A stretch of 54,546 bases of DNA from a virus (lineage: Duplodnaviria; Caudoviricetes), in the IMG/VR virus record IMGVR_UViG_3300032562_000035, positions 1 to 54,546 of that record; one strand, 5' to 3'. The notes beneath the pieces are model-generated. The model saw only the letters and a program-made list of their open reading frames with translations, searched no databases and was not told the origin of the DNA. Of the stretch, positions 12,156 to 52,525 are shown in pieces. Every line of letters starts with the position of its first letter. Positions within the stretch are counted from its first letter, which is position 1. The translations under genes were made by a program, and so were the position numbers.

Positions 12156-12655
12156 TGCCTTCCAAGGATGTCATCACCAAGAACATCCCCCACATCGAAG
12201 GCGAGTTCTGGCTCCCCTATGAGCCGGTAGCCAAAGGGAGGCCCCGGATGGGCAAGTGGGGTGCCTATACCCCCAAGAAGACCGAAGACGCTGAGATGTA
12301 TATCAGGAACTGGGTAGCGGCTCACCATACCCTGCATGGGCCGCTACCCTATCCTCTGTCCATGGACATCACCTTCTTCTGCTCCGCAACCAAGGCTGGT
12401 TACCATGTCAAACGACCCGATGTCGATAACTTCCTTAAGCTACTGCTTGATGCGCTCGGCCCCAACAACCAGCGGCCTGGCCTCCTATACCTGGATGACG
12501 CTCAGGTCTGCGACATCCATGTCCGTAAGCTCTGCCATCCGATCCGGGGTATCTGGGTCAAATGGTCTACACTCCCTGACTACACCCCCGTTGACCATCC
12601 CATGACCAGGGAGTTGACCCATGCTGGAACGAAGAAAGCCTCACTTTTTGCCTAG
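12155..12655 (+). CDS. rusA: RusA-family Holliday junction resolvase
   Basis: PVAKGRPR, YTPKKT, KRPDVDNFLKLLLDAL, DDAQV. Confidence 0.9.
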   Translation: MPSKDVITKNIPHIEGEFWLPYEPVAKGRPRMGKWGAYTPKKTEDAEMYIRNWVAAHHTLHGPLPYPLSMDITFFCSATKAGYHVKRPDVDNFLKLLLDALGPNNQRPGLLYLDDAQVCDIHVRKLCHPIRGIWVKWSTLPDYTPVDHPMTRELTHAGTKKASLFA

Positions 12656-24689: not shown

Positions 24690-25091
24690 ATGCCTGTCGA
24701 ACTCATCGAACTGATCCCCCCCGAAGTGAAACTGGAATCCCGCCAGTGCAAGGAGATCATCAACAAGATCAGTGGTTTCTCTTGGACCCGTGATCTGGAC
24801 CCCCGTGCCCGTTGGGCCACCCTGTATTACGAAGCCAAGATGAACGAGAAGCAGTTCGACTGCATTATGGACGATAAGGAGCAGACCGTCATGGAGGTGG
24901 AGGGCGAAGAAGGCCCCGAAATCCGTGAGGTCTTCAACCAGATCGAACTGGAGGCGCAGTCGATGCGGAAACTCCAGGAAGTTGGTAGACTGTATGGTGT
25001 CAGGGGAGTGCGGAAGCGCGACCTGATCCTCCAGATCCTCCAGGCGCAGACCAAACTCGTTCTTAGGGCAAAGACAGAACAGGGGAAGTAA
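24690..25091 (+). CDS. Hypothetical protein with a C-terminal Rho-N/HeH-like motif
   Basis: LEAQSMRKLQEVGRLYGVRGVRKRDLILQIL. Confidence 0.6.
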   Translation: MPVELIELIPPEVKLESRQCKEIINKISGFSWTRDLDPRARWATLYYEAKMNEKQFDCIMDDKEQTVMEVEGEEGPEIREVFNQIELEAQSMRKLQEVGRLYGVRGVRKRDLILQILQAQTKLVLRAKTEQGK

Positions 25092-25094
25092 GCC

Positions 25095-26219
25095 ATGAGC
25101 TTCACCACCAGGTCGCTTCTTGGACGAGTCTCTAAGTTCCGATCCGATCTACCGGACTCGGGAGTCACTGAGTACTTCCTCCAGGAAGCGGCTAGGCGTG
25201 TAATGCAGGACACGTTCCTTGGGCAGATCGTGCAGAGGACGTTCTTCCTCCCTAGGCGGGTGGACACGATCCTGTTCACGGCGAACATCCCCTGGTGGGA
25301 TGTCACCAATGCCCAGCCGAACATGGCTTACGTCCCGAATACGAACACCTACTTGACGGGGACCAACTCGCTCGGGTTGGACCCCAACATGATGTTCCTC
25401 CCGGCCTGTGATGACTACAGCACGGCGACCTCTGGGCAGCTTGACCCTGTAGACATCCTCCGGTTCACGAACCTGAAGATCGCCAATGCCGCGATCTCTC
25501 CATCTCCGGGTACTGGAAATTTCAGAGGGTATTTCAAGGCCATTCCATCAACCACGGGGTGGACGATGGGAGATTTTATCATCCTGATGGTGGGGGGATC
25601 CATCACCCAGAGTTCCATTACCTCTTATTGGAACGGGGACGATGTTGCCTATTGGAATAATGCCACCTCCATGTGGACGTTCCTCCCGGCGAACCAGTTC
25701 ATCAACCTCGCGCAGCAGAGCGCAGGTAACGCAGAACACTCCCCATCGGCTCCAGTGATCCTGCCCCCGCAGTCTAACCCATCGAACACCTATCCGGCCT
25801 TCTGGACGCAGCGCAGCGGCAGGATGGCCTATCTCCAGTCCGGTGCGAACCTGTACACAGGGTTCACCGGGATGCAGATCAAGCTCTACAATGCGTCCTC
25901 CTACGACACGGCTTTCCAGGTTCAGTATTCATGTATCCCGAATGGGGACATCGGGAACATGGAGTTGAACCTGCCCGATGAAGCCAGGGATGCCATCGTG
26001 GATCTCTGCTTGTCGGATATCCTGTCCCTGCCAGGCACGGGGCAGAACCTGATCTTGTCGGAGAACAAGCGGGTGACCTACGAACAGGTCAAATCCAAAC
26101 TCGCTGCCCTTGGTGTCATGGGCATGGGTGGATCTACCACCTTCCACTCCCCGAACTTCGGCTCCAGGACGGGGCGGTCTTCGCCTTACTGGTTCTCCAA
26201 CTCGTTCCCCGGATGGTGA
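25095..26219 (+). CDS. Head-tail adaptor-like virion protein
   Basis: Position; N-terminal helix FLQEAARR and C-terminal LPDEARDAIV. Confidence 0.55.
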   Translation: MSFTTRSLLGRVSKFRSDLPDSGVTEYFLQEAARRVMQDTFLGQIVQRTFFLPRRVDTILFTANIPWWDVTNAQPNMAYVPNTNTYLTGTNSLGLDPNMMFLPACDDYSTATSGQLDPVDILRFTNLKIANAAISPSPGTGNFRGYFKAIPSTTGWTMGDFIILMVGGSITQSSITSYWNGDDVAYWNNATSMWTFLPANQFINLAQQSAGNAEHSPSAPVILPPQSNPSNTYPAFWTQRSGRMAYLQSGANLYTGFTGMQIKLYNASSYDTAFQVQYSCIPNGDIGNMELNLPDEARDAIVDLCLSDILSLPGTGQNLILSENKRVTYEQVKSKLAALGVMGMGGSTTFHSPNFGSRTGRSSPYWFSNSFPGW

Positions 26220-43295: not shown

Positions 43296-43540
43296 GCATC
43301 TATCATCAGGTCGTTCACCAGCGTCATGCCCAGATCAAGGATACCTTCGACCAGAAGATGGCGAAGATCGACAAGTTGAAGGCCACCGCACCCACTGACG
43401 AAGAGGGTGCCACAGCGGCCAGGGCGCATCGACATAAACTGCGGGTTGAGGCAGCCAAGGAATACTGCGATGCCCGTCATACCCTCAACGATGTCTATGG
43501 CAAATATGCCGGGACAAACACCCACCAGGAGAAGAAATGA
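43292..43540 (+). CDS. Hypothetical protein
   Basis: GTGA/ATGA coupling on both sides. Confidence 0.65.
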   Translation: MSIYHQVVHQRHAQIKDTFDQKMAKIDKLKATAPTDEEGATAARAHRHKLRVEAAKEYCDARHTLNDVYGKYAGTNTHQEKK

Positions 43541-43836
43541 GCGTGTATGACCAGTTCGTGGCCCTGCGGAAGAACCAGTTCCGGCACTCTGCCAACAAGC
43601 AGTTGCTGGGTGCCAATGCCAAGCGACCCAAGCCGACCCCTGGAGCGAGTCCTGAGATGAATGATGTCCAGGTGGCCCAGAACCGTGACCTCAAGAAGAT
43701 GGCTGCCCAGGAATACGGGAAGAATATGAACGAACTGACCGGTGCCTACGGCGATTTCATGGATGGCAAGACGGAGAACCAGTCTGCCTCCGGTGGCTCG
43801 TCCAGGTCTCCCCAAGTCAAGACCCCCAAGTCGTAG
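43537..43836 (+). CDS. Hypothetical protein
   Basis: AGGAG RBS; coupled to the upstream gene. Confidence 0.65.
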   Translation: MSVYDQFVALRKNQFRHSANKQLLGANAKRPKPTPGASPEMNDVQVAQNRDLKKMAAQEYGKNMNELTGAYGDFMDGKTENQSASGGSSRSPQVKTPKS

Positions 43837-43843
43837 GTGCATC

Positions 43844-44032
43844 ATGCCGCTGAAACCTGGCCGAAGCAAGAAGACCCGTGAAGAGAACATCGAAGAAGCT
43901 GCCCACTCCGCTAAGGCTTCGGGCAAGTTCGGCAACCAGAAGGGGTCGATCAAGAAGTTGATGCCCTCCATCTTGGCGGCAGCCTACAAGAAGTCAGGGG
44001 AGAGCAAGACTCCCCCCAAGCGCAAGAAGTGA
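43844..44032 (+). CDS. Small basic protein (MPLKxGxSxK...NI type)
   Basis: MPLKPGRSKKTREENIEE...AAAYKKSG. Confidence 0.65.
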   Translation: MPLKPGRSKKTREENIEEAAHSAKASGKFGNQKGSIKKLMPSILAAAYKKSGESKTPPKRKK

Positions 44033-44355
44033 TTATGGACAACTGTGAGAAGGCATCCACCTGTGGGAATCGGATACGACCGGCAGCCAAGAAGGCCCTG
44101 GTGGAACTTGGCATCCACTCTGCCCTGAACCTGATCCTGTTTATCTGCGGGATCATGCTCGGGGTGTCCTTCCATTCGGCGGCACAAACGCATAAGATGG
44201 AAGTGTTGGAGGCAGACAGGGATCACTGGAGACAGTCGTATGCGGAGTTACACCTTCAGGCACAGAGTATTCAGGACCACTTCGACAAAATCAACGAAGA
44301 ACACAACTTGGTCCTGATAAGGATCGAAGCCGCGATTAAGGGGCAAAAGAAATGA
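44029..44355 (+). CDS. Membrane protein with a coiled coil (lysis region)
   Basis: One hydrophobic helix followed by a coiled coil. Confidence 0.6.
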   Translation: MIMDNCEKASTCGNRIRPAAKKALVELGIHSALNLILFICGIMLGVSFHSAAQTHKMEVLEADRDHWRQSYAELHLQAQSIQDHFDKINEEHNLVLIRIEAAIKGQKK

Positions 44356-44684
44356 TCCTGGACAACCCCGACACGATCTACGCTCTTGGTTTCAAGGAAG
44401 CCCTCTCTGTTGGTGGTTTGGTCGTTGTAGCCATGCTGGCCGGGTTCGGCGGGATGCTGCAATGGTTCGTCAAGGCCAAGTTGACCGACCTCGCCGCCTC
44501 CATCAAGGAACTCCAGGACGGTCAGGACGAGACCAATGCGCGGCTACGCGATGATGTGACTGCCATGAAGACCGAAGCCTTCGAGTTCAAACTTTACGCA
44601 GAGCGGGAGTTCGCCAAGAAGGCATCACTTGAGCGGGTGCATGAGCGTCTGAACGATGTCCTGAACGCAGTGAACAGCAAATAG
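44352..44684 (+). CDS. Holin/antiholin-like membrane protein
   Basis: N-terminal TM helix plus coiled coil, directly upstream of the endolysin. Confidence 0.55.
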   Translation: MILDNPDTIYALGFKEALSVGGLVVVAMLAGFGGMLQWFVKAKLTDLAASIKELQDGQDETNARLRDDVTAMKTEAFEFKLYAEREFAKKASLERVHERLNDVLNAVNSK

Positions 44685-44692
44685 GAGAGACC

Positions 44693-45220
44693 ATGCTTTA
44701 TTTCGTGCAGACCGGAGGCTTCTACCACGGCCCCGACAATGCCACCCCTGGCGATCTGGCCCTGATCTCTGACAAGGGCTGGGCTGGCCGGTTCTCGGGC
44801 AAGGGCAACCCCAAGCTTGAATCTGCCCATGGCATCGGGCCTCTCCCCTGCGCGTACTACACGCTCGACAGTTGGGAAGAGAACCACCTTAAACTCGGCA
44901 AGATGGTCGCTCACTTGACCCCTGACCCAGGTTCGCAGATGTGGGGTCGGGATGGCTTCTACATCCATGGGCCTTCCAATGATCCTTCGGAATACGGGAA
45001 TGAGTCGATGGGATGCATCGTGGAACCCCATCCCCAGCGTCAGGCGATCAAGGACACTGGAGATATGCGTCTACGGGTGATCTCTTGCATGGATGATCTC
45101 CTGCCGAAGCCGGAACCAGTTTCTGAACCCGACCCCATCCCTGAACCTGAACCGATCCCCGAAGTCCCCGTGGTTGAGCCTGAACCAGTGGTGGATGAGG
45201 GTGGACCCGTATCTGCTTGA
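44693..45220 (+). CDS. Endolysin candidate, Tlde1/DUF2778 L,D-transpeptidase-fold domain
   Basis: FSGKG, GPLP..YY, LTP, GRDGFYIHG...SMGCI catalytic His/Cys; Pro-Glu tail. Confidence 0.82.
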   Translation: MLYFVQTGGFYHGPDNATPGDLALISDKGWAGRFSGKGNPKLESAHGIGPLPCAYYTLDSWEENHLKLGKMVAHLTPDPGSQMWGRDGFYIHGPSNDPSEYGNESMGCIVEPHPQRQAIKDTGDMRLRVISCMDDLLPKPEPVSEPDPIPEPEPIPEVPVVEPEPVVDEGGPVSA

Positions 45221-45243
45221 TCCCTACTGGGAGGACCCCTACG

Positions 45244-45486
45244 ATGTCGAACTTCCTGATGGCACTCCAGACGATCCTTCGGAATACCTTTACCGGGAAA
45301 GACAACAAGACCCATGACATCGGAGCGATCTCATGGGGCGTGTCTGCCGCTGCGATCATTGGCCTTGCTGCCTGGCAGACGGGGCACCATACGCATGTTG
45401 CGGTGACCGATCTAGCCTATGCCCTTACTGCGATCTCGGCTGGGCACGGCCTAGCCATGGGGGCCAAGGCCAATACCCAGCCGTAA
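45244..45486 (+). CDS. Holin
   Basis: GGAGG RBS; two TM helices; FTGKDNKTHDIG; follows the endolysin. Confidence 0.65.
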   Translation: MSNFLMALQTILRNTFTGKDNKTHDIGAISWGVSAAAIIGLAAWQTGHHTHVAVTDLAYALTAISAGHGLAMGAKANTQP

Positions 45487-45487
45487 T

Positions 45488-45760
45488 TCACTTGGGGTTG
45501 AGGGCGGCGCTGGCGATGCAATGGCTGCACCACTCGCTGGTCTGGTCGGGGTGGGTGTCGCGGCAGGTAGTGCCCTCGTAGAGGGTTTCGCAGGCTCCCT
45601 CGCGCCGGATCCGCTCCAGGGCCTCGCGGTAACGGTCCAGCAGGGCCATAGGGTCAGTCCCCTCGGAAACCCCTCGGTTGGTGTAGGCATCGAGCATCCG
45701 GCGTTTCTCAGCCTCCAGTTCCGCGACCCGCAATTTCAAAGCATCGGTTATTGGCCTCAT
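45488..45760 (-). CDS. Array gene: coiled coil plus CxxC protein
   Basis: TGTCCA then GGGAGG RBS; LRVAELE...CSHC..ALNPK. Confidence 0.7.
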   Translation of the reverse strand: MRPITDALKLRVAELEAEKRRMLDAYTNRGVSEGTDPMALLDRYREALERIRREGACETLYEGTTCRDTHPDQTSEWCSHCIASAALNPK

Positions 45761-45782
45761 GGATGCCTCCCGCATCTGGACA

Positions 45783-45983
45783 TTATTCGGGGGTGATGGC
45801 GATGGTAGATCGGTTTATTTCGATGCGAGTGACCCTCCACGGTTCATGGACCTGGGCAGCGAATTTCATCGCCTCATCTTCGGTCATAAATTCCATGTAG
45901 CGTTCCCACCCGCCAAACCGAAAACCCCATACTTCGTATTGATTCCAGGTGGTTCTGGGGGCGAAGTTGGTTATGGCATCCAC
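45783..45983 (-). CDS. Array gene: hypothetical
   Basis: TGTCCA-GGAG then GTG; stop followed directly by TGTCCA. Confidence 0.7.
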   Translation of the reverse strand: MDAITNFAPRTTWNQYEVWGFRFGGWERYMEFMTEDEAMKFAAQVHEPWRVTRIEINRSTIAITPE

Positions 45984-46100
45984 GGCAATCTCCTGGACAA
46001 CTTCAGTTGTTGTAGTGGCGGCAACCCTGGCAGTATGGACATGATTGTTTTTGGTTTGAAAATCGACAGGTCGCGGGGATGTGTCGATCTCCTGGACAGG

Positions 46101-46235
46101 CTACGCAGCCTGGATGCGATTAATGAGGTAGTAGCCCTGCGACCAGGGGAGGCGCAGGATGCTGGCAACCTCGGCGGGGCTGTTGACCAAGGTCATGGGC
46201 GGGAACCCGTTGGGGCACTCAATGATTTCCCACAT
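46101..46235 (-). CDS. Array gene: 44-aa peptide (not in ORF track)
   Basis: TGTCAA-ctGGAGG RBS; MWEIIECPNGFPPMTLVNSPAEVASILRLPWSQGYYLINRIQAA. Confidence 0.6.
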   Translation of the reverse strand: MWEIIECPNGFPPMTLVNSPAEVASILRLPWSQGYYLINRIQAA

Positions 46236-46311
46236 GGTTCCTCCAGTTGACAAGTGAAGCGGGTGGGATTGCGTTCCACGTTTAAAGCCGCTTGGCTCCC
46301 GCAGATGGACA

Positions 46312-46587
46312 TTACGGGTTGAGGGCTCTACGGGCAGCGCACCAGACGCAACCCGTCTTATGGGGCTCGAAGTAGGCCATGGATTCCTTGTGGCGGTCGG
46401 GTTCAGCGGTGAGCATGTCGTTCAACCGCGCCTCCAGTTCCGATACCCTGGCGGTCAGGGTGGAATTGTCCCGGTGCATGGTCTGGATGATGGCATCCAG
46501 TTCCGCGACCCTGGCGCGGAGTTCAGCGTTGTCCACGAAGGCAGTTGCCTGGAGGCGCGTGACGGATTCAGGGAAAAGGGTTGCCAT
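46312..46587 (-). CDS. Array gene: coiled coil plus CxxC protein, related to 45488-45760
   Basis: LRARVAELD...RVSELE...CVWC..ALNP. Confidence 0.7.
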   Translation of the reverse strand: MATLFPESVTRLQATAFVDNAELRARVAELDAIIQTMHRDNSTLTARVSELEARLNDMLTAEPDRHKESMAYFEPHKTGCVWCAARRALNP

Positions 46588-46605
46588 ACCTGCTCCTGGA
46601 CAACT

Positions 46606-46950
46606 TCAGTTGGGGATGATTTCTCGCCCACACTCAACGGGTTGGCATGAAATGAAGCGCACCGGCAGGTTCGCGGTGTGGGGAAGGCGTTCCGCATACC
46701 AAGCGAGGTAGGCGGTTAGGTCTTCCCGGCTAGGCGCGTCCTTCTTATCCAGCCACCAGTAGTAGGGGACGGATGGGCGAACCCGATGGGCCGTGAGCAT
46801 CCACCTCCCATAGCCGAAGGTGCGAGCCTCCCAGCAGGGCGGGTAGACCTTCCGGTTCCGCCCTGCCTTCTTGGGCTTCTGGGTGGGAGGGTCAACCCGG
46901 CGCTGAGTTGAGACGGATGGGAGGCCCTCGCCTCTCCAGTCTTTTGACAT
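46606..46950 (-). CDS. Array gene: hypothetical
   Basis: TGTCCA-GGAG before MSKDWR. Confidence 0.7.
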   Translation of the reverse strand: MSKDWRGEGLPSVSTQRRVDPPTQKPKKAGRNRKVYPPCWEARTFGYGRWMLTAHRVRPSVPYYWWLDKKDAPSREDLTAYLAWYAERLPHTANLPVRFISCQPVECGREIIPN

Positions 46951-46970
46951 GAGCATCTCCTGGACAGGCG

Positions 46971-47147
46971 CTACGGAAGGATGGAGGTCAGCATTCGGAG
47001 CGTGTCGGCGCACTCGCGCTTGCCCTGGCGAATGCCTTCCGCGATGTTATTACCTCGCTGCGCCTCGGGCGACCCGTCCTCACAGACGGGGTTGGCGGCA
47101 TCGTTGTCCCAGCGTTTTGCCAGTTCAAGCAGGATTTCGTTTTTCAT
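46971..47147 (-). CDS. Array gene: hypothetical (58 aa)
   Basis: TGTCCA-GAAAGGA before MKNEILLELAKRW. Confidence 0.7.
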   Translation of the reverse strand: MKNEILLELAKRWDNDAANPVCEDGSPEAQRGNNIAEGIRQGKRECADTLRMLTSILP

Positions 47148-47166
47148 GGTGGTCCTTTCTGGACAT

Positions 47167-47382
47167 TCACTTCTTGGTTTCAAAGGCTTGGGGGAATTCG
47201 GCACGGAGAACGGCAACCCGATCTCGCGCCCGTTCACGCTCCAGGGCATCCATGCGATACCAGCAGTCAGCCATTTCTTCGGATATGGCGTCCTCCTCGG
47301 CTTCGGTGATGGTCCCGGCGACTCGACCAGAGATCAGTTTCTTCTCCAGTCTCCGGTGGCTTTCTTCATCAGCCCACGACAT
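47167..47382 (-). CDS. Array gene: hypothetical (71 aa)
   Basis: TGTCCA-GAAAGG before MSWADEES. Confidence 0.7.
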   Translation of the reverse strand: MSWADEESHRRLEKKLISGRVAGTITEAEEDAISEEMADCWYRMDALERERARDRVAVLRAEFPQAFETKK

Positions 47383-47404
47383 AGGTTCACCTTTCTGGAC
47401 AAGA

Positions 47405-47632
47405 TCAAGCGTTGGGGTTTGCGGTCTGCCACTTCTCAAAGAGGGCGACCACTTGAGGACGTTCATACCAGTCGTGCATGGGCTTCTGGCAATCCTTGTC
47501 GTGGTAGAAGGACGGCCCCAGGTAGGAGTGCCACTCCATCCAAACGCCCCGGCCCAAGTGGTGGACCGGGGACCAACAGATGAAACCAACCCGGCGCTTG
47601 CCGCAAAAGTCGAGGATGGGGGAGCAGGGCAT
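47405..47632 (-). CDS. Array gene: hypothetical (75 aa)
   Basis: TGTCCA-GGAG before MPCSPI; MEWHSYLGPSF. Confidence 0.7.
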   Translation of the reverse strand: MPCSPILDFCGKRRVGFICWSPVHHLGRGVWMEWHSYLGPSFYHDKDCQKPMHDWYERPQVVALFEKWQTANPNA

Positions 47633-47651
47633 CGTGGCTCCTGGACAGGTG

Positions 47652-47894
47652 CTACTTGGGGCGATGCTTGGAGCAGGTGCGCCGGTAGCCAGTGGGAGTG
47701 GGGGTGCCGCAGGTGTCGAAGTCAAAGCACTCCGGTTCATCGCAGCACGTTCTCAGGTCGTTGATCGAATGGCAGAGAGGGCAAGCCATCAACGTTTCGC
47801 CGGGGTCGAAGGGATCGGGGGCGGAAAGGGTTTCGTTCTCCACCCCGATCCAGCCGCATCGGTAGTTCGGGCAGCGCAGATACCCAGCGGTCAC
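47652..47894 (-). CDS. Array gene: Cys-rich zinc-finger protein
   Basis: CPNYRCGW, CPLC, CCDEPEC, TCSKH; GTGA-coupled to the upstream gene. Confidence 0.7.
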   Translation of the reverse strand: MTAGYLRCPNYRCGWIGVENETLSAPDPFDPGETLMACPLCHSINDLRTCCDEPECFDFDTCGTPTPTGYRRTCSKHRPK

Positions 47895-48067
47895 GGGTTC
47901 ACCTTGAACTTCTTCAGGTCGGTGCAGTGGCAATGGGGACAGGCGAGGGTGGACCAGCCGCCCGAATCGGGGAGCCGCGCCATGTCCTTGTATTTCGTGA
48001 CGCGCTTGCAGGACTCGCAGATGTAGTCCTTGTTCGCCATGCGCTGGGTCAGGACTCGGGTGGTCAT
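47891..48067 (-). CDS. Array gene: zinc-ribbon protein (58 aa)
   Basis: CESC...CPHC; TGTCCA-GAAAGGGG RBS. Confidence 0.7.
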   Translation of the reverse strand: MTTRVLTQRMANKDYICESCKRVTKYKDMARLPDSGGWSTLACPHCHCTDLKKFKVNP

Positions 48068-48090
48068 ACTTCCCCTTTCTGGACAGTGGA

Positions 48091-48648
48091 TCACGCAGCC
48101 TTGCGGAGCAGCGAGGGTCTGATGGTCGGGCACTCGGGGAAATAGCCCCGGATGATGTCGGACTGGGCGTCCCGTGCGGCGGCCCCTGCGGCGTCCCGTG
48201 CGGCGGCCCGTGCGGCGGCCCATGCGGCGTCCCGTGCGGCGGCCCATGCGGCGGCCCATGCGGCGGCCCATGCGGCGGCCCCTGCGGCGGCCCCTGCGGC
48301 GGCCCCTGCGGCGGCCCCTGCGGCGGCCCCTGCGGCGTCCCATGCGGCGTCCATCTCATCTCGGGTGGCCTCGCCACGGGCAAACCTCCGGGCGCACTCG
48401 ATGGCGAGGCGGGGTCGGTCCTCCCCGGCAGGGACGAGATGCAGCACCGCCTCGGCAAAATCACAGGCCATGAGGCGCAGCCGGGGGTCGTCCTGGCCCA
48501 GTGTGGTCCGGGTCAGCAGCCAGAGCATCCAGTCGGGGCGTTTGCAATTCGCCCATGCAGTCTGGAGGTCGGGCTGGGACTCAGCCCAGCATGTGGCCTC
48601 GTTACAGGCGTTGAGGCATTGCAGGATCGTGGAGAGTTTGAGTTTCAT
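48091..48648 (-). CDS. Array gene: Imm5-like protein with Ala tetrapeptide repeats
   Basis: AW..C.RPDWMLWL, ACDFAE.VL, DRPRLAIE.AR.FA.G followed by (A/D)AA(W/G/R) x15. Confidence 0.7.
   Translation of the reverse strand: MKLKLSTILQCLNACNEATCWAESQPDLQTAWANCKRPDWMLWLLTRTTLGQDDPRLRLMACDFAEAVLHLVPAGEDRPRLAIECARRFARGEATRDEMDAAWDAAGAAAGAAAGAAAGAAAGAAAWAAAWAAAWAAARDAAWAAARAAARDAAGAAARDAQSDIIRGYFPECPTIRPSLLRKAA
48167..48352. repeat. 12-bp coding tandem repeat, about 15 copies
   Basis: GCGGCG(G/T)CCC(C/G/A)T units. Confidence 0.9.
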
Positions 48649-48671
48649 GGGTTCCTCGGAATGGACAGGTG

Positions 48672-49013
48672 CTAGATGTGGTGGACGTAGACCCGGAGGC
48701 CCAACGATAGGGCGGTTCGGATCATATTGGCGGTGCCTTTGCTCCTGCCATCCCAGATGGCAATCAGGGCATCGGATTCTTGGGCCATCTGCCTGTTGCG
48801 GATCGGGCCAGCGGCTTTTCCGTGGGCCTTCCAGTCGGCGGGAAACACCCGGAGCGGGACAGCGTAGAGCGCGGCCCAGAGTTCGCCGTAGTGGTCGGCC
48901 CCAGGTGCGCCACCGGAAATGACTTCGGTGATGATGAAGCCGGAAGCCCTGATGGCCTCAACCACTGGCTTGGAGTCGGTCAGGGTTCGGCCCCCGGCGA
49001 TGATGGTTTTCAC
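48672..49013 (-). CDS. Array gene: SLOG-family protein (YspA/DUF2493-like)
   Basis: IIAGGR, VISGGAPGAD, FPADW..HGKAAGPIRN.QMA, WDGRSKGT. Confidence 0.88.
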   Translation of the reverse strand: MKTIIAGGRTLTDSKPVVEAIRASGFIITEVISGGAPGADHYGELWAALYAVPLRVFPADWKAHGKAAGPIRNRQMAQESDALIAIWDGRSKGTANMIRTALSLGLRVYVHHI

Positions 49014-49123
49014 GGTTGCCTCCCGGCAGAGGATGGACAAAATCAGATGGTTTATTTGGGTAAAAAACATTAGGACCCCATTGGTTCTGGTGGTTCGGAT
49101 CCTTGAATAGCAGTTGAACCTAG

Positions 49124-49345
49124 TTAGCGGTCCCGGTGCTTCCTTGCTTTCCTTAGGTTCTCGCTGGTTTCCTTCAGATTCTCGTAGTAGGAAGACACCC
49201 TGGGATCATAGTCTTCCTTCGCGGGGTTCCCCTCTGCTGATCTCTGCCTAGCCTCCAGGACATGCGCCCTGGCTTCCTGTTTGGCCCTGCCAACAACCTC
49301 AGAAAGGCTGTTGGTCAGGGCAACCTGCGGGACCGGAGGTCTCAT
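49124..49345 (-). CDS. Hypothetical basic protein
   Basis: ATGA-coupled to the upstream gene. Confidence 0.6.
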   Translation of the reverse strand: MRPPVPQVALTNSLSEVVGRAKQEARAHVLEARQRSAEGNPAKEDYDPRVSSYYENLKETSENLRKARKHRDR

Positions 49346-49524
49346 TTGTGCATCTTCTTGAGAGTTTCGGCCAACCTGGCCCTCTTCCCCTCAACGCCAC
49401 CCTTCTTCTCGGCAGCCTTCAACTTCTTCTCGGGGATATTCTTCCCCTTTGGGACACCCAACTCTTCGTGGAGCGCCCCGGGATGCTTGATGGCACCCTT
49501 GATCCAGTTCTTCTTCTCGGCCAT
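49342..49524 (-). CDS. Small Lys-rich phage protein
   Basis: WIKGAIKHPGALH..LGVPKG..IP.KKL.......KRARLAETLKK. Confidence 0.75.
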   Translation of the reverse strand: MAEKKNWIKGAIKHPGALHEELGVPKGKNIPEKKLKAAEKKGGVEGKRARLAETLKKMHK

Positions 49525-49533
49525 GGGAGCCTC

Positions 49534-49686
49534 CTACTTGCAGCCCTTCTTGCCCTTCTCTTCCTTCTTCTCCCGCTTCTCGACCTTCTTCTCGACCTTC
49601 TCAGCCAGCTTCTTGTCGGCCTTCTTGTCTTCCTTCAGAAACTCGCGCTTGGCTTCCTTGCCCTTCTTCTCGGCTTCCTTTTTCAT
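49534..49686 (-). CDS. 50-aa Lys/Glu-rich peptide (not in ORF track)
   Basis: AGGAG RBS; MKKEAEKKGKEAKREFLKEDKKADKKLAEKVEKKVEKREKKEEKGKKGCK. Confidence 0.65.
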   Translation of the reverse strand: MKKEAEKKGKEAKREFLKEDKKADKKLAEKVEKKVEKREKKEEKGKKGCK

Positions 49687-49727
49687 TTCTTTCTCCTAGA
49701 GGGCCATCGTGATTGACGGTCTAACAC

Positions 49728-49756
49728 AAGATAAGTCCGTATAGCACACCGTGCAA
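49728..49756 (-). promoter_or_regulatory. Sigma70-like promoter upstream of the basic genes and the array
   Basis: TTGCAC-17-TATCTT. Confidence 0.55.
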
Positions 49757-49757
49757 C

Positions 49758-50021
49758 CTATTCAAGCATGTCAACGTGGATATTCTCCCCTTTCTTTCTG
49801 AGGAAGATTGAGACCGCCATCTTCCCGCCCGGATGGGGCGTGGACTCCATGACCAGTTCCGCTTCACTGGGGAAGCACCCTGCGTTCTTGATGAAGTCCT
49901 CAACGATCTGCATCTTCTTCATCTCCACTCGTTCCAGGATGGTCGTATTCATCTTGTCGAGCGAGGTACGGTTCTTACGGATGTTCTCAGTGATGTATTT
50001 GAACTTGGCACCATCAGTCAT
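49758..50021 (-). CDS. Hypothetical protein
   Basis: AGGAG RBS; C-terminus resembles 50265-50456 (ends FLRKKG versus YIRKKG). Confidence 0.7.
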   Translation of the reverse strand: MTDGAKFKYITENIRKNRTSLDKMNTTILERVEMKKMQIVEDFIKNAGCFPSEAELVMESTPHPGGKMAVSIFLRKKGENIHVDMLE

Positions 50022-50263
50022 TTCTGCTCCTGGGAGTGTGGGATCATCTCATCAACAAGTCGGTTCATGGCAATCTCTTCGGTCTCGAAGGGACCCCTTG
50101 GGGCGGGTTCCATGACCTTGCCATCCATCAAAAAAACATAGGCATAGGTTCTCCCGTCACGCCCAGGCCAAAGGTGAGCCAGTTTCTTGCCCCGGAACCC
50201 CGTAAGCCACCAGCCCAGCCCATTGGGTGGCCGCTTCCATTTGTAGGCACTCGGACTAGCCAT
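50018..50263 (-). CDS. Hypothetical protein
   Basis: Tightly coupled ORF. Confidence 0.65.
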   Translation of the reverse strand: MASPSAYKWKRPPNGLGWWLTGFRGKKLAHLWPGRDGRTYAYVFLMDGKVMEPAPRGPFETEEIAMNRLVDEMIPHSQEQK

Positions 50264-50264
50264 A

Positions 50265-50456
50265 TCACACCCCCTTCTTGCGGATATAGGTTCGGATGAC
50301 CAAACCTTCCTGGGTGGTCACGGGTTCGATCTTGTCCAGGCCAAGGCCAGATTCAGCCATGTAAGCCAGCATCAGGGTCTCCACCCCCATCTGGTAGACC
50401 TGGATCATGGGGCCGAGGGCTTCGTCTTCCATCTGTTCGAGTTTGCTGCGGTCCAT
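50265..50456 (-). CDS. Hypothetical protein
   Basis: GAAGG RBS before MDRSKLE. Confidence 0.65.
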   Translation of the reverse strand: MDRSKLEQMEDEALGPMIQVYQMGVETLMLAYMAESGLGLDKIEPVTTQEGLVIRTYIRKKGV

Positions 50457-50458
50457 GG

Positions 50459-51433
50459 TTACACCTTCCAGGTGATGCTTGGGAAACGGGAAGCCGACTT
50501 CCGGTATTGTGCCGCAAGATCGGGGTAGTCCTGGGAAAATTTCACAGAGTCGAAGGAACCGGCGCGGTCCTTCCACTTGACGCTGGCGGTCTCGGTGTCG
50601 AAGCCTTCCTTGGGCAGCAGATCCTTGAGTTCAGCCTTCAGGGTTTCGATGCGCTTGTCCTTGGCACGATCCTCGTCCGTCTTGGGGGAGTCCAGTTCTT
50701 GCAGTTCCTCCAGGATGGTCTTGAGCCGCAGTTCGACCACGAAATCGCCCTGCTCTTTGGGCTGGTCATGCTTCCAGGTGGGGCAACCATCCCTGATGGG
50801 GCACTTGTCACACTGGTACCCCAGTTCACCCTTGGCCAGCATCCCGAAGATGATGGCAGTCTGGGCATCCACCGCTTTCTGCCGAAGGGCGGCATAGGCG
50901 GTCTCGTCCCAGGGGATGGTGACCATCTCGCACTCGCTGAGATCATCGGCCTGGAAGTACCAGAGGGTCCCCTCGTTGCAGGGTTCCCCTTCGGCACGGG
51001 CTGACCCGATCTGGGCCAGGATCTGGTCCTGGTGATAGCTGGGAACCTTGCCCTGCCGGATCTTCCGGAAGACTCCCTGGGTGGCGGTCTTGATGTCGCA
51101 GACCACCATCTGGTCGTTCTTATAGGCCAGGAAGTCAGGGTGCGCGGTGACCGGTCCATCCACATATTCGATGCAGTTGTCACCCTGGGTTCGGGCCACC
51201 GTCCAGCCCTGGTTCCCCAGGATCACTTCGGCCAGAGCGATGCACTCAGGCTCCAGGACATGACCACGGGCAGCCTTCCCGATCCAGGAGTCGGTGTTCT
51301 CCGGGTTGCCCCTACGATGCACCAGAAGCCTGGGGCAACCACCGATCTCACTGGCCCCGATCTGATGTGGGTTATTTTTGCCTGGTCGGGGGGGCTGACG
51401 AAGCTGGAGTGCGTTCGTGACGTTGATTTTCAT
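50459..51433 (-). CDS. PD-(D/E)XK nuclease (Cas4-like / YqaJ-like exonuclease)
   Basis: GASEIGGCPR, HPDFL, CDIKT, Q...Q, C..CP...GC iron-sulfur-type cysteines; next to ERF. Confidence 0.82.
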   Translation of the reverse strand: MKINVTNALQLRQPPRPGKNNPHQIGASEIGGCPRLLVHRRGNPENTDSWIGKAARGHVLEPECIALAEVILGNQGWTVARTQGDNCIEYVDGPVTAHPDFLAYKNDQMVVCDIKTATQGVFRKIRQGKVPSYHQDQILAQIGSARAEGEPCNEGTLWYFQADDLSECEMVTIPWDETAYAALRQKAVDAQTAIIFGMLAKGELGYQCDKCPIRDGCPTWKHDQPKEQGDFVVELRLKTILEELQELDSPKTDEDRAKDKRIETLKAELKDLLPKEGFDTETASVKWKDRAGSFDSVKFSQDYPDLAAQYRKSASRFPSITWKV

Positions 51434-51440
51434 GTTCCAC

Positions 51441-51545
51441 CTAAGAAAAAAGAATGTAGAGAAGACCCAGGAAGACCATCAGGACGCACAGGAAGGTCCA
51501 TGGGTGGTGCAATGCCTCACTTAGGAACCATCTTGTGCGCCCCAT
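51441..51545 (-). CDS. 34-aa membrane peptide (not in ORF track)
   Basis: GAGG RBS; MGRTRWFLSEALHHPWTFLCVLMVFLGLLYILFS. Confidence 0.5.
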   Translation of the reverse strand: MGRTRWFLSEALHHPWTFLCVLMVFLGLLYILFS

Positions 51546-51552
51546 GACTACC

Positions 51553-52275
51553 TCACCGGCTCACGAACTCTTCCATGTCCTTCTTGGCCTGATCACGCTT
51601 CGCCTTGGTGTGTGGCAGGATCTTGGCTGGGCCGTACTCGCCCATGGCCTTGGTCGCACTGGTCAGCAGATCCTCGTACTCATCGAACAGGTTCATGGAG
51701 TGCATGTAACCCTTGATCTCCGTCATCAGCCCGTTGAACTCATCGGTCTCTTCGGGAGTCCATGTGTTCTTGAGGTCTGCCGGGGCCTTGGCGACCTTCT
51801 TCGGCTTGTCGGCTACGGGAGGGGCGGGAACGGTATTCTGCGTCCCCTGGGCGGTGCTGGGGCGACCGCTGGCCGCTTCCCCGTCATCGTCAGACTCGTC
51901 CTGGGCAGCCACAAGGCCCATGGCAGCCATGGCATACCGGCAAGCGTAGGTGGTGCCGCTGCCGATCACCTGGGGATCGACCTTGCCCGGGGCCAGGGGA
52001 ACCGTGGTGGACCCAAGGATCCACTCGCCCGACTCATGCAGGAACAGGGTCTCGACCGTGATCCGGTTCTCAGCGTCCAGCCCCTGGGGGATCTGGGTGA
52101 TGGCTACCCCATGCTTCGAGTAGATGGGACGGACAGTGTTCAGGATGGTAGCCAGATTGGCATACCTGCTCTTGAAGAACGGATTATCGGAGTCCTTGAC
52201 CACGTTCTTGACTTCCGACTGAGCGGCAGCCATGGCCTTAGCGATATTCCCGATGTTGTCCGAATGGGTGAGCAT
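51553..52275 (-). CDS. erf: ERF-family single-strand annealing protein
   Basis: KDSDNPFFKSRYANL, HESGEW, DPQ.IGSGTTYA.RY, DDDG. Confidence 0.92.
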   Translation of the reverse strand: MLTHSDNIGNIAKAMAAAQSEVKNVVKDSDNPFFKSRYANLATILNTVRPIYSKHGVAITQIPQGLDAENRITVETLFLHESGEWILGSTTVPLAPGKVDPQVIGSGTTYACRYAMAAMGLVAAQDESDDDGEAASGRPSTAQGTQNTVPAPPVADKPKKVAKAPADLKNTWTPEETDEFNGLMTEIKGYMHSMNLFDEYEDLLTSATKAMGEYGPAKILPHTKAKRDQAKKDMEEFVSR

Positions 52276-52276
52276 A

Positions 52277-52525
52277 CTAGCTCTCCGTAGAAGTGGCAGG
52301 GTTGGTCCCTGCGGGGGTGGCGGTGGTCCCCCAGGTTGGAGGGGTCAGGTCGTGTGCTTCAAAAAAAATATCCAGTAGCCGCTTCCCCGCTGCGCCCGGG
52401 ACTCGCTCCCCATGGGCCCATGAAAAAAATGTCCTACGGGAAACACCTAACAGCCTGATCACGTTCTCAATGGTGCCGTGCTTGGCTACCAGTTGCGTCC
52501 AGGGTTCGGTCAGCGTGGTCTTCAT
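52277..52525 (-). CDS. Cro-like HTH regulator
   Basis: GTIENVIRLLGVSRRTFFSWAHGERVP. Confidence 0.75.
   Translation of the reverse strand: MKTTLTEPWTQLVAKHGTIENVIRLLGVSRRTFFSWAHGERVPGAAGKRLLDIFFEAHDLTPPTWGTTATPAGTNPATSTES

What the first reader, a model, noticed from the sequence alone, without database searches (positions are those of the whole stretch)
45488..49039. Integron-like array of small genes punctuated by a TGTCCA hexamer at nearly every junction
Seen (minus strand): 12 short co-oriented genes, with junctions reading stop + 0-5 nt + TGTCCA + RBS + start. Examples: TAGcacc-TGTCCA-ttccGAGGA (48662), TGAtccac-TGTCCA-GAAAGGGG (48080), TAGcacc-TGTCCA-GGAG (47642), TGAtct-TGTCCA-GAAAGG (47396), TGAa-TGTCCA-GAAAGGA (47160), TAGcgcc-TGTCCA-GGAG (46961), TGAagt-TGTCCA-GGAG (46597), TAA-TGTCCA (46306, 45777), TAGcc-TGTCCA-GGAG (46093). 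I count 13 exact copies and 2 one-mismatch copies, all on one strand and none inside the genes, where about one would be expected by chance. The other early operons lack it. Left flanks (TAGCACC, CAACTGAAGT, TAA) and right flanks (GGAG, GAAAGG, TGC(C)GGGAG) fall into a few classes that combine differently, as expected if exchange occurs at the hexamer. The one junction without it (47891) is a coupled zinc-finger pair, i.e. a two-gene unit. Established: integron cassettes are promoterless single-gene units joined at a short core, but they need attC hairpins and IntI, and neither is visible. Inference: a minimal gene-cassette acquisition or shuffling system for accessory, possibly anti-defence, genes. 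Alternatives are an mRNA processing site or a translational regulator site (UGUCCA).
Basis: partly seen in the sequence, partly recalled or inferred. Interest (0 to 1): 0.92.

Follow-up and report, generated by a model that had tools for sequence, protein, structure and literature searches.

The report
Conserved TGTCCA gene-junction signal in phages
A six-base word, TGTCCA, sits in front of almost every small accessory gene in one operon of this lake phage and of about twenty related uncultured phages, marking the borders at which single genes are swapped; it looks like a new expression signal rather than an integron.

Summary
13 exact TGTCCA lie on the minus strand between 45777 and 49039, all in the 11% of that stretch that is non-coding (about 1.25 expected; P about 1e-9).

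It is not private to this genome. The same layout (stop, 0-7 nt, TGTCCA, Shine-Dalgarno, start) occurs in about 20 other viral or metagenome contigs. These have at least three kinds of structural module. One array lies in a prophage on a 5.7-Mb Holophagaceae (Acidobacteriota) contig.

Only the hexamer is invariant. It is always in the sense orientation, precedes the first gene of an array, and is missing after the last. It is absent where genes overlap.

High-identity single-gene blocks shared between phages begin exactly at the hexamer and end just past the next one. Lake-metagenome contigs lose homology at the hexamer edges.

The integron reading fails. There is no tyrosine or serine recombinase in this 99%-complete genome, no attC-like inverted repeats, and decayed units keep both flanking hexamers.

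Best reading (about 0.5): a sense-strand, probably mRNA-level, punctuation or regulatory signal of the accessory end of the early operon. Together with the ribosome-binding site it also serves as a recombination linker. It resembles mycobacteriophage start-associated sequences and T4 PeSLs in role but not in sequence. No RNA data exist, so the function remains inferred.

The parts
49034..49039 (-). TGTCCA no. 1, in the 5' leader of the first array gene g1. The upstream stop is 85 nt away.
48672..49013 (-). g1, 113 aa, YspA/SLOG family (PF10686, phrog_289), GTG start
48662..48667 (-). TGTCCA no. 2 (TAGcacc-TGTCCA-ttccGAGGA)
48091..48648 (-). g2, 185 aa, phrog_18326, with a 12-nt tandem repeat coding Ala-rich AAxDAA/AAGAAA units
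48080..48085 (-). TGTCCA no. 3 (TGAtccac-TGTCCA-GAAAGGGG)
47652..48067 (-). g3 (58 aa) and g4 (80 aa), Cys-rich pair with overlapping stop and start (GTGA). No hexamer lies between them. A viral contig (L070) carries the same pair; its g4 is 95% identical in protein, and the DNA across both genes is 93% identical.
47642..47647 (-). TGTCCA no. 4 (TAGcacc-TGTCCA-GGAG)
47405..47632 (-). g5, 75 aa, phrog_7990
47396..47401 (-). TGTCCA no. 5 (TGAtct-TGTCCA-GAAAGGTGAACC), the commonest junction string of the whole phage group
47167..47382 (-). g6, 71 aa, no family
47160..47165 (-). TGTCCA no. 6 (TGAa-TGTCCA-GAAAGGA)
46971..47147 (-). g7, 58 aa, no family
46961..46966 (-). TGTCCA no. 7 (TAGcgcc-TGTCCA-GGAG)
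46606..46956 (-). g8, 114-116 aa, no family
46597..46602 (-). TGTCCA no. 8, inside a 20-nt string (CAACTGAAGT-TGTCCA-GGAG) repeated exactly at 45990-46009
   Evidence: D9
46312..46587 (-). g9, 91 aa, coiled coil with a C-terminal CxxC...ALNP. Appears paralogous to g12 by eye and by DNA repeat D2.
   Evidence: D2
46236..46311 (-). 76-nt spacer. An exact TGTCCA (46306-46311) abuts the g9 stop and is followed by an orphan ribosome-binding site. A one-mismatch TGTCAA (46247-46252) lies just before the ribosome-binding site of g10. Read as a decayed unit.
46101..46235 (-). g10, 44 aa (not scanned against family libraries)
45984..46100 (-). 117-nt gap with three exact TGTCCA (46093-46098, 46036-46041, 45994-45999) and one TGTCGA (46063-46068). 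These are remnants of lost units, the last still carrying a gene 3' end plus a stop.
45783..45983 (-). g11, 66 aa, GTG start (not scanned against family libraries)
45777..45782 (-). TGTCCA no. 13 (TAA-TGTCCA-gaTGCGGGAGG). Metagenome contigs lose homology on both sides of it.
45488..45775 (-). g12, 90-95 aa, last gene of the array. No hexamer follows its stop. It converges on the lysis/structural module.
50459..52275 (-). Upstream in the same direction: a 324-aa gene that I read as a PD-(D/E)XK/RecB-like exonuclease from its sequence alone (no family search was run on it), and an ERF single-strand annealing protein (PF04404). Together they form the phage's own homologous-recombination module.

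Best explanation
TGTCCA is a functional, strand-specific signal. It marks the 5' edge of every non-overlapping cistron in the distal, accessory part of the phage's early operon, the stretch downstream of erf and the putative exonuclease gene. This position is comparable, from my own knowledge, to the 'ea' region of lambdoid phages.

I think it is read on the polycistronic mRNA as UGUCCA. It would work as a punctuation mark: either an endonucleolytic processing or 5'-end-defining site, or the binding site of a host or phage factor that controls the whole accessory set together.

The same word, with its adjoining ribosome-binding site, gives 10-24 identical bases at every junction in many phages that seem to share a host lineage. 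It therefore also serves as the linker at which single-gene units are exchanged by ordinary short-homology recombination; this phage encodes Erf and a putative exonuclease.

Shown: the anatomy, the conservation across phages, and the unit-wise exchange. Inferred: the RNA level of action, the trans-acting factor and the recombination route.
For: 1. Enrichment and placement. 13 copies against 1.25 expected, all non-coding.

2. Group-wide signal.
- Arrays with the same layout occur in 12 of 72 viral loci found with the hexamer+SD string; one of the 12 is the contig already found through g4.
- They occur in 9 of 117 metagenome loci, 3 of which are the same contigs again.
- They occur in 1 of 14 bacterial-genome loci, a Holophagaceae contig of 5.7 Mb.
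- The phages have different structural modules.

3. Selection on the hexamer itself. In 143 array sites only the six bases are fixed. The flanks carry at most 0.66 bit per position (G at -5 in 69%, G at -1 in 1%). At the 7 longer array junctions that lack an exact copy, 4 carry a one-mismatch copy at the junction position: TATCCA three times and TGCCCA once.

4. Sense orientation and gene linkage.
- 95 copies in 10 genomes lie upstream of a start. The distance from the motif to the start has its mode at 12 nt.
- 62 of 92 co-directional gaps of 15-40 nt hold the hexamer, against 5 of 275 overlapping or near-overlapping junctions.
- The first gene of an array has it; nothing follows the last gene in G000, G003 and G004.

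5. A short asymmetric word with no predicted structure (unpaired probability 0.45 against 0.47 for the background), and no promoter or terminator excess. This fits a linear RNA motif.

6. Not a general host gene signal.
- 16 of 17 hits outside the prophage in the Holophagaceae genome look coding.
- 0 of 20 sampled hits in 121 family genomes are arrays.

7. Unit exchange.
- Of 16 blastn matches between arrays, 8 start at hexamer offset 0 and 11 end within 12 nt after a hexamer. The random figure is 9%.
- G002 and G003 share 97.6% and 95.9% identical single-gene blocks bounded this way.
- 9 of the 24 listed loose ends of lake contigs lie at a hexamer edge or just after its ribosome-binding site (163 more were not shown).

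8. Junction strings of 20 nt or more are shared by 84 site pairs, 78 of them between genomes. This count is inflated because the genomes were found with that string.

9. ERF gene in the same operon, next to the putative exonuclease.
Against: - No RNA evidence of any kind: no RNA run holds the stretch.
- No protein family is common to all array-bearing genomes, so a phage-encoded reader is not identified. A host reader is pure inference.
- In 21 junctions with a long spacer (17-80 nt to the start) the hexamer stays next to the upstream stop rather than next to the ribosome-binding site. This weakens the 'translation-initiation enhancer or repressor' form of the idea.
- The hexamer does not pair with the 3' tail of the host-lineage 16S rRNA, which reads ...CCTCCTTTCT then aaggag.
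- Sense-strand copies occur inside late genes at chance frequency. They are not significantly depleted inside array genes: 4 observed against 7.2 expected, P = 0.15.
- Breakpoints at the hexamer are expected both if it is the crossover point and if it is merely the only thing conserved between unrelated neighbours.
- My gene calls come from a simple home-made caller.
Confidence: 0.5

Rival explanations
1. Recombination linker first. The hexamer with its flanks is kept mainly because it lets co-infecting phages and prophages swap single-gene units by short-homology recombination (Erf or host RecA), as PeSLs do in T4-type phages. It would have no separate role in expression.
For: - Homology blocks start at offset 0 of the hexamer and end just after the next one.
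- Lake contigs break at hexamer edges.
- Flank classes re-assort.
- Identical junction strings of 20-24 nt occur in different phages.
- Erf and a putative exonuclease are encoded directly upstream.
- Hexamer-preceded genes are small (median 73 aa) and rarely shared: 14 of 93 against 160 of 554 for other genes.
- PeSL precedent: abstract of PMC2839356.
Against: - Six invariant bases are far too few for homologous recombination. If identity by descent alone kept the junctions alike, the hexamer should decay as fast as its flanks, yet only the hexamer is fixed.
- Selection for future exchange is weak selection.
- The first gene of an array also carries the hexamer in its leader, and the orientation always follows transcription.
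- Gene loss leaves remnants with both hexamers rather than clean hexamer-to-hexamer deletions.
Confidence: 0.2
2. DNA-level protein site. TGTCCA, with weak flanking positions, is bound on double-stranded DNA by a phage or host protein that silences or gates transcription through the accessory operon. It would work like the asymmetric stoperators of Cluster A mycobacteriophages.
For: - One orientation relative to transcription, intergenic placement, many copies per operon.
- Weak extra conservation from -5 to +3 widens the site to about 14 bp.
- Some members are temperate: integrase in G001, G008, G009 and the Holophagaceae prophage.
- A repressor-like small protein lies upstream in the window (phrog_35, E = 4e-5).
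- Stoperators are recalled from my own knowledge and mentioned in PMC3203893.
Against: - About 15 bits of information gives roughly ten extra same-strand copies per genome inside genes.
- 4 of the 5 complete array-bearing genomes have no integrase, so prophage silencing is not a general need.
- The sites are confined to one sub-operon and are not genome-wide.
- No DNA-binding protein is shared by all the genomes.
Confidence: 0.12
3. Integron-like site-specific cassette system. A dedicated enzyme cuts and joins at TGTCCA, excising and inserting circular single-gene cassettes.
For: - Promoterless single-gene units in one orientation.
- Exact unit borders at the hexamer.
- An HNH_3 endonuclease gene lies directly upstream of the arrays in G002 and G003; a family member is also encoded in G001, about 40 kb from the array on that contig.
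- The integrase is adjacent to the array in G009 and in the Holophagaceae prophage.
Against: - No PF00589 or PF00239 recombinase in the 99%-complete window genome.
- An integrase is present in only 1 of 5 complete genomes.
- No candidate enzyme is common to all.
- No attC-like inverted repeats; the inverted repeats found are 84 nt or more apart and not at junctions.
- Decayed units keep both hexamers.
- There is one hexamer per gene on the 5' side and none after the last gene.
Confidence: 0.05
4. Transcription signal. Each hexamer is part of a promoter or start site for a host or phage polymerase, so that each small gene has its own transcript.
For: - The hexamer sits at the 5' edge of every unit, including the first, which follows an AT-rich 85-nt spacer.
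Against: - No sigma-70-like promoters above chance: 1 found against 1.2 expected, and that one is on the other strand.
- Nothing is conserved at -10/-35 distances on either side.
- The upstream bases are the end of the preceding gene and differ everywhere.
- No phage RNA polymerase was identified in the proteins scanned (only part of the genome's proteins were scanned).
Confidence: 0.05

Closest known systems
Start-associated sequences (SAS) of Cluster K mycobacteriophages (PMC3203893; passages read)
   Same: - A short asymmetric repeat in one orientation, in 11-19 copies.
- Restricted to the non-structural part of the genome.
- Lies a few bases upstream of start codons of genes from different families.
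- Not found as a signal in the host genome.
- Function unknown; a role in translation initiation or a binding site for a host or phage product was proposed.
   Different: - SAS is a 13-bp word (GGGATAGGAGCCC) that contains the Shine-Dalgarno core and sits 3-7 bp from the start. Here only 6 bases are fixed and only the last A can belong to the ribosome-binding site.
- Here the word tracks the upstream stop when the spacer is long.
- Here it occurs across phages with unrelated virion modules, not in one cluster.
- No ESAS-like 17-bp inverted repeats were seen.
PeSLs (promoter-early stem-loops) of T4-type phages (PMC2839356; abstract read)
   Same: - Repeated small regulatory elements that flank small non-essential ORFs in hyperplastic regions.
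- Exchange between copies explains gene insertion, deletion and replacement between related phages.
   Different: - PeSLs are composite sigma-70 promoters plus terminator stem-loops. The TGTCCA junctions have neither.
- The TGTCCA junctions are 6 nt plus a ribosome-binding site inside one polycistronic unit.
- PeSL mini-circles were shown physically. Nothing of that kind could be tested here.
RegB endoribonuclease sites in phage T4 early mRNAs (PMC1702504; abstract read)
   Same: - A short single-stranded RNA word at the ribosome-binding sites of early genes that lets one factor act on a whole temporal class.
- Roughly a fifth to a quarter of the 143 junctions read TGTCCA-GGAG: the listed GGAG-starting six-base right flanks sum to 26.
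   Different: - The RegB target is GGA(G) plus an A-rich 3' stretch, not UGUCCA.
- No RegB homologue (PF10715) in the window genome.
- No cleavage data exist here.
Integron gene cassettes (attC / IntI); recalled knowledge
   Same: Promoterless single-gene units in one orientation, joined at a short conserved core.
   Different: - No integrase.
- No attC hairpin.
- The core lies on the 5' side of each gene.
- Decayed units are retained.
Stoperators of Cluster A mycobacteriophages (recalled; mentioned in PMC3203893)
   Same: Asymmetric intergenic sites oriented with transcription, many per genome.
   Different: - Stoperators are 13 bp, spread over the whole genome and bound by the prophage repressor.
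- Here the word is 6 bp and confined to one sub-operon, mostly in phages without an integrase.

Membership tests
Integron (IntI + attC cassette array) | Tyrosine recombinase IntI encoded next to the array | tested here: not met
   PF00589 gave 0 matches at E <= 1 in the 99%-complete genome, while the control found it in 14 of 14 reference genomes. Only G009 among the 5 complete array-bearing genomes has an integrase.
   No local inverted repeats at the junctions; all 19 inverted pairs have arms 84 nt or more apart. There is no pairing signature around 135 sites. The gaps are mostly 15-40 nt.
Integron (IntI + attC cassette array) | Promoterless single-gene units in one orientation | tested here: met
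   12 co-oriented genes and no promoter or terminator excess.
Start-associated sequences (Cluster K mycobacteriophages) | The 13-bp consensus GGGATAGGAGCCC, which contains the SD core, 3-7 bp from the start | tested here: not met
   The consensus here is TGTCCA only. Distance to the start has its mode at 12 nt and ranges up to 80 nt.
Start-associated sequences (Cluster K mycobacteriophages) | Asymmetric, one orientation, upstream of starts of non-structural genes of different families, not a host signal | tested here: met
PeSL regulatory cassettes (T4-type phages) | Sigma-70-like early promoter plus terminator stem-loop in each copy | tested here: not met
   1 promoter-like site (on the other strand) against 1.2 expected, and 4 terminator-like sites against 5.2 expected, none at junctions. 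No structure.
PeSL regulatory cassettes (T4-type phages) | Copies flank small variable ORFs, and exchange between copies shuffles genes | tested here: inconclusive
   Unit borders coincide with the hexamer. The crossover point cannot be told apart from mere conservation of the hexamer. Mini-circles are not testable with contigs.
T4 RegB target sites | RegB endoribonuclease encoded by the phage | tested here: not met
   PF10715 gave 0 matches at E <= 1.
T4 RegB target sites | Cleavage of early mRNA at the motif | not testable with these tools
   No RNA run holds the stretch.
Extended Shine-Dalgarno (pairing with the 16S 3' tail) | The motif is complementary to the 3' end of the host 16S rRNA | tested here: not met
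   The Holophagaceae 16S ends ...GGATCACCTCCTTTCT, followed by aaggag. Only the final A of the hexamer can extend AGGAG or AGAAAGG pairing. TGTCC lies beyond the rRNA end.

The most novel reading that the evidence does not exclude
TGTCCA is the core of a phage gene-cassette exchange system that needs no integron integrase. A pool of single-gene units, each headed by the hexamer, would circulate among unrelated phages of one host lineage. The units would be cut out, perhaps as mini-circles, and inserted at the hexamer by an as yet unrecognised enzyme or by Erf-type annealing. The same word would make each inserted gene expressible in the operon. That would be the 'universal linker' of Botstein's modular theory in its purest form.
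Probability: 0.1. Interest if true: 0.9.

Novelty: new variant of a known kind. Interest (0 to 1): 0.62.

Why it matters
Phage accessory regions are where anti-defence and host-takeover genes accumulate, and how they are assembled and co-regulated is mostly unknown.

Here one six-base word heads nearly every accessory gene in about twenty uncultured phages with different virion modules, apparently of one poorly studied host lineage (Holophagaceae, Acidobacteriota).

That gives three things:
- A simple search key for finding the accessory gene pool of these phages in metagenomes.
- A clean natural case of gene-sized modules with a common border, which makes the old 'linker' idea of modular phage evolution directly testable.
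- A candidate new post-transcriptional signal in a phylum with almost no molecular genetics.

If it proves to be a processing or regulator site, it would be a compact part for building polycistronic constructs in such hosts.

Tried and rejected
Close relatives
- No DNA match to 45400-49400 in 50,697 phage records.
- The terminase has only 31-34% identical relatives there, and g5 about 35%.
- The putative exonuclease has 2 relatives (63-65%) among 5.8 billion proteins, on contigs of 6.5 kb or less.
- The putative exonuclease, alone or as an alignment, found nothing in viral contigs or metagenome contigs.
- The 18-mer around the g8/g9 junction found nothing in viral contigs.

Expression
- No RNA holder is listed for the stretch.

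Pairing with rRNA
- The 16S tail does not continue into the complement of the hexamer.
- One TGGACA lies inside the 16S at position 733. A given hexamer is expected 0.3-0.4 times in 1.5 kb, so I give this no weight.

Trans-acting antisense RNA
- No non-coding anti-hexamer is common to the complete genomes (one search list).

RNA structure and known RNA families
- No signature in the folding profile.
- No Rfam match in 45000-50000 at E <= 1.
- A hairpin form GTCCAGG-N5-7-CCTGGAC exists at only about 6 of the 143 sites, none of them in the window. The loose pattern matched 8 sites, 2 of which do not fit on inspection.

Host-wide signal
- Rejected. The 45 against 15 excess of TGTCCAGAAAGG in 121 family genomes looks like codon usage: 20 of the 45 places were inspected, none was an array, and about one looked like a gene start.

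Depletion of the hexamer inside array genes
- Not significant.

Shared reader protein
- None found by BLASTP clustering.
- The families scanned were an integrase, HNH_3, DUF4406, a RecA-dependent nuclease-like protein and a dATP/dGTP pyrophosphohydrolase-like protein. None is universal.

tRNAs
- None in the genome.

Limits of what I looked at
- Clusters of TGGACA in L015, L067 and L142 and in the structural genes of G004 are coding-sequence effects, not junctions.
- The four-copy clusters in L083, L085, L105 and L121 were not inspected.
- g10 and g11 were not scanned against family libraries (10 of the 12 array genes were).
- Only part of the window's 80 called proteins was scanned against Pfam or PHROGs.
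- Supplementary files of the papers were not seen. The SAS site tables of PMC3203893 may bear on the comparison.

Full report
**What the window is**

The 54,546-base window is a whole virus record, 99% complete by the collection's estimate. DNA runs that hold it are lake and freshwater metagenomes.

It has no close relative among 50,697 deposited phages. The virion and lysis genes lie on the plus strand (about 12.9-45.5 kb).

On the minus strand, one long leftward gene string runs from about 54.3 kb down to 45.5 kb. It encodes:
- a C5 DNA methylase;
- an ERF annealing protein (51553-52275);
- a 324-aa protein (50459-51433) that I read as a RecB/PD-(D/E)XK-like exonuclease from its sequence alone (no family search was run on it);
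- six small genes;
- then the twelve genes of the finding.

DnaB, DUF1376, SSB and RusA lie elsewhere. From my own knowledge, this is the position of the non-essential 'ea' genes at the end of the early-left operon of lambdoid phages.

- 13 of the 31 minus-strand TGTCCA lie in 45777-49039, where 1.25 are expected (P = 9.5e-10). All 13 fall in the 10.7% of that stretch that is non-coding.
- Each of the ten ordinary junctions reads stop, 0-5 nt, TGTCCA, ribosome-binding site, start.
- The pair g3/g4 overlaps (GTGA) and has none.
- The first gene g1 has a copy in its leader, 85 nt after the previous stop.
- Nothing follows the last stop.
- Two gaps are longer and hold remnants:
  - 46236-46311 has an exact copy beside the g9 stop, an orphan ribosome-binding site, and a one-mismatch TGTCAA just before the g10 ribosome-binding site.
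  - 45984-46100 has three exact copies and a TGTCGA. The last remnant still ends in a gene tail plus stop that repeats, base for base over 20 nt, the g8/g9 junction.
- There is no promoter or terminator excess, no Rfam match and no local inverted repeat.

**The signal is not private to this phage**

- A g4 homologue with 95% protein identity lies on a 42.7-kb viral contig (L070). There the g3/g4 pair is flanked by four junctions of the same kind but followed by different genes.
- Searching viral contigs for the hexamer plus the commonest ribosome-binding string gave 72 loci. Twelve of them (one being L070's contig) carry arrays of 3-19 junction copies.
- The 18-mer found 9 array loci among 117 metagenome loci, three of which are contigs already seen.
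- It found one array among 14 bacterial-genome loci: eleven copies within 3.5 kb of a 5.7-Mb contig of a Holophagaceae MAG, next to an integrase.
- That prophage shares an endolysin family with the window phage (48% over 85 residues), G007 (64%), G006 and G003. It shares eight proteins with G008. This is the only host clue and it is indirect for the window phage.
- These relatives were found with the motif itself. They show that the layout recurs, not how common it is.

**Anatomy across ten genomes**

I rebuilt nine contigs and called genes with a simple codon-usage caller.

- The phages fall into at least three virion-module types plus several unique ones.
- 95 hexamers lie upstream of a start. 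The distance to the start has its mode at 12 nt, and the distance from the upstream stop is 0-5 nt in most.
- Where the spacer is long (17-80 nt; 21 cases) the hexamer stays beside the upstream stop. The reverse arrangement is rare: 2 cases with an upstream gene called.
- Among co-directional junctions, 62 of 92 gaps of 15-40 nt carry it, against 5 of 275 overlapping or near-overlapping junctions.
- In 143 array sites only the six bases are fixed. The best flanking positions are G at -5 (69%), non-G at -1 (99%) and A at +3 after the hexamer (66%).
- The commonest right flanks are GAAAGG (26 sites) and GGAG-starting strings (the listed ones sum to 26). In both, the last A of the hexamer can belong to the ribosome-binding site (AGAAAGG, AGGAG).
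- Of the 7 longer array junctions without an exact copy, 4 carry TATCCA (three) or TGCCCA (one) at the junction position.
- Folding gives no signature: unpaired probability 0.45 against 0.47 for the background.
- Hexamer-preceded genes are small (median 73 aa) and seldom shared between the ten genomes: 14 of 93 against 160 of 554 for other genes.

**Exchange of units**

- Between arrays there are only 16 blastn matches (8 reciprocal pairs). 8 start exactly at the first base of a hexamer, and 11 end within 12 nt after one; random positions do so in 9%.
- G002 and G003 share single-gene blocks of 97.6% and 95.9% identity bounded this way, between unrelated neighbours.
- Contigs of four lake runs were laid on 43500-52500. 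More abundant relatives (85-94% identical) match g1, g2 and g3+g4 separately.
- 9 of the 24 loose ends listed lie at a hexamer edge or just past its ribosome-binding site: 45776/45782, 48079/48085 (three runs), 48668 (two runs) and 47390 (163 more loose ends were not shown).
- The loose letters behind 48085 are those of L070: another gene's end, TGAtct, then the hexamer.

So the units are swapped as wholes. These data cannot say whether the crossover happens in the hexamer or whether the hexamer is simply all that unrelated neighbours share.

**Why not an integron**

- The window genome has no tyrosine or serine recombinase.
- Of the five complete array-bearing genomes only G009 has an integrase.
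- No protein family is common to all.
- There are no attC-like repeats.
- The word heads each gene rather than trailing it.
- Lost genes leave stumps with both hexamers, here and in L112 and L087.
- 69 loci with g1 homologues in other phages have no array.

**Why probably RNA**

- The word is short, asymmetric and always sense. It is confined to one sub-operon and is not used by host genes. Copies inside genes occur at chance frequency, which would be tolerable if translating ribosomes mask them.
- It is not an extension of rRNA pairing. There is no RegB homologue.
- Its position at the 5' edge of every unit, first gene included, and its indifference to the distance from the ribosome-binding site fit a processing or 5'-end-defining mark, or a regulator site for the whole set. 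They fit an initiation enhancer less well.
- This is inference. No RNA run holds the DNA.

**Comparison with known systems and novelty**

- The nearest precedents are the start-associated sequences of Cluster K mycobacteriophages (passages of PMC3203893).
- For the shuffling aspect, the nearest are the PeSLs of T4-type phages (abstract of PMC2839356).
- T4 RegB sites (abstract of PMC1702504) are the model for a class-wide RNA word.
- The sequence, its brevity, its anchoring at the unit's 5' edge and its spread across unrelated phages differ from all three.
- Full-text searches for TGTCCA with phage and intergenic (14 papers, none relevant by title or abstract), for UGUCCA (24 papers, the 15 listed all siRNA or miRNA contexts) and for Holophagae with prophage (5 papers) found no description of it.

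**Verdict**

This is a real, strongly selected and so far undescribed junction signal of a group of uncultured, probably Acidobacteria-infecting phages. It is a new variant of the known kind 'repeated gene-start or junction motifs of phage accessory regions'. The integron-like mechanism is not supported; the module-border role is. Interest 0.62.

Noticed in passing
window 48130-48400 (inside g2): 16 copies of a 12-nt tandem repeat encode an Ala-rich run (AAGAAA/AAWAAA/AARDAA). Lake contigs differ here by 1-6-nt indels and reach depths of 160-300, far above the phage's own depth of about 5-7. Many related genes or organisms therefore carry this repeat.
   Followed up: partly
window 45984-46100 and 46236-46311: Non-coding stumps between hexamers: an orphan ribosome-binding site, a gene tail with a stop, and degenerate hexamers TGTCGA and TGTCAA. 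They look like decayed single-gene units. Similar stumps occur in L087 (1231/1289) and L112 (4357/4400).
   Followed up: partly
other phages: G007 30342 and 31526, G010 27882, L098 3644, L143 120 and 1031: About 6 of the 143 junctions continue as a hairpin GTCCAGG-N5-7-CCTGGAC before the ribosome-binding site. None is in the window. The meaning is unknown; it could be a fuller form of the signal.
   Followed up: no
G012:C1 about 5,381,000-5,412,000 (loci L189, L207, L208): Prophage in a Holophagaceae MAG chromosome-sized contig. It has an 11-copy TGTCCA array directly beside its integrase. It is most like viral contig G008, with which it shares eight proteins.
   Followed up: partly
G002 (L153:623-982) and G003 (24949-25308): An HNH_3 endonuclease gene (my family F4) lies immediately upstream of the arrays in G002 and G003. 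A family member is also encoded in G001 (L173:535-1065), far from the array on that contig. There is none in the window.
   Followed up: partly
window 49040-49123: An AT-rich 85-nt spacer with a T-run precedes the first hexamer. It may hold the array's own promoter or a terminator of the upstream genes. The consensus scan found neither.
   Followed up: partly
window 12357-12368: A perfect 12-base palindrome TGTCCATGGACA lies inside the RusA gene. It is probably chance.
   Followed up: no
G004 1-21400: 31 of 41 reverse-strand hexamers are antisense copies inside GC-rich structural genes (TGGACA from Leu/Val/Met-Asp codons). Raw strand counts of the hexamer are therefore misleading in GC-rich genomes.
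   Followed up: yes
window 47658-48668 in runs X16-X18, X20: Relatives carrying g2 and g3+g4 homologues (85-93% identical) are 10-40 times more abundant in the lake runs than the window phage itself.
   Followed up: no
array sense strands of 7 genomes: Array mRNAs are C-rich and G-poor (C 30-34%, G 27-30%), whereas other genes have C about equal to G. The 20 nt before each hexamer are more extreme (C about 40%, G about 17%).
   Followed up: partly
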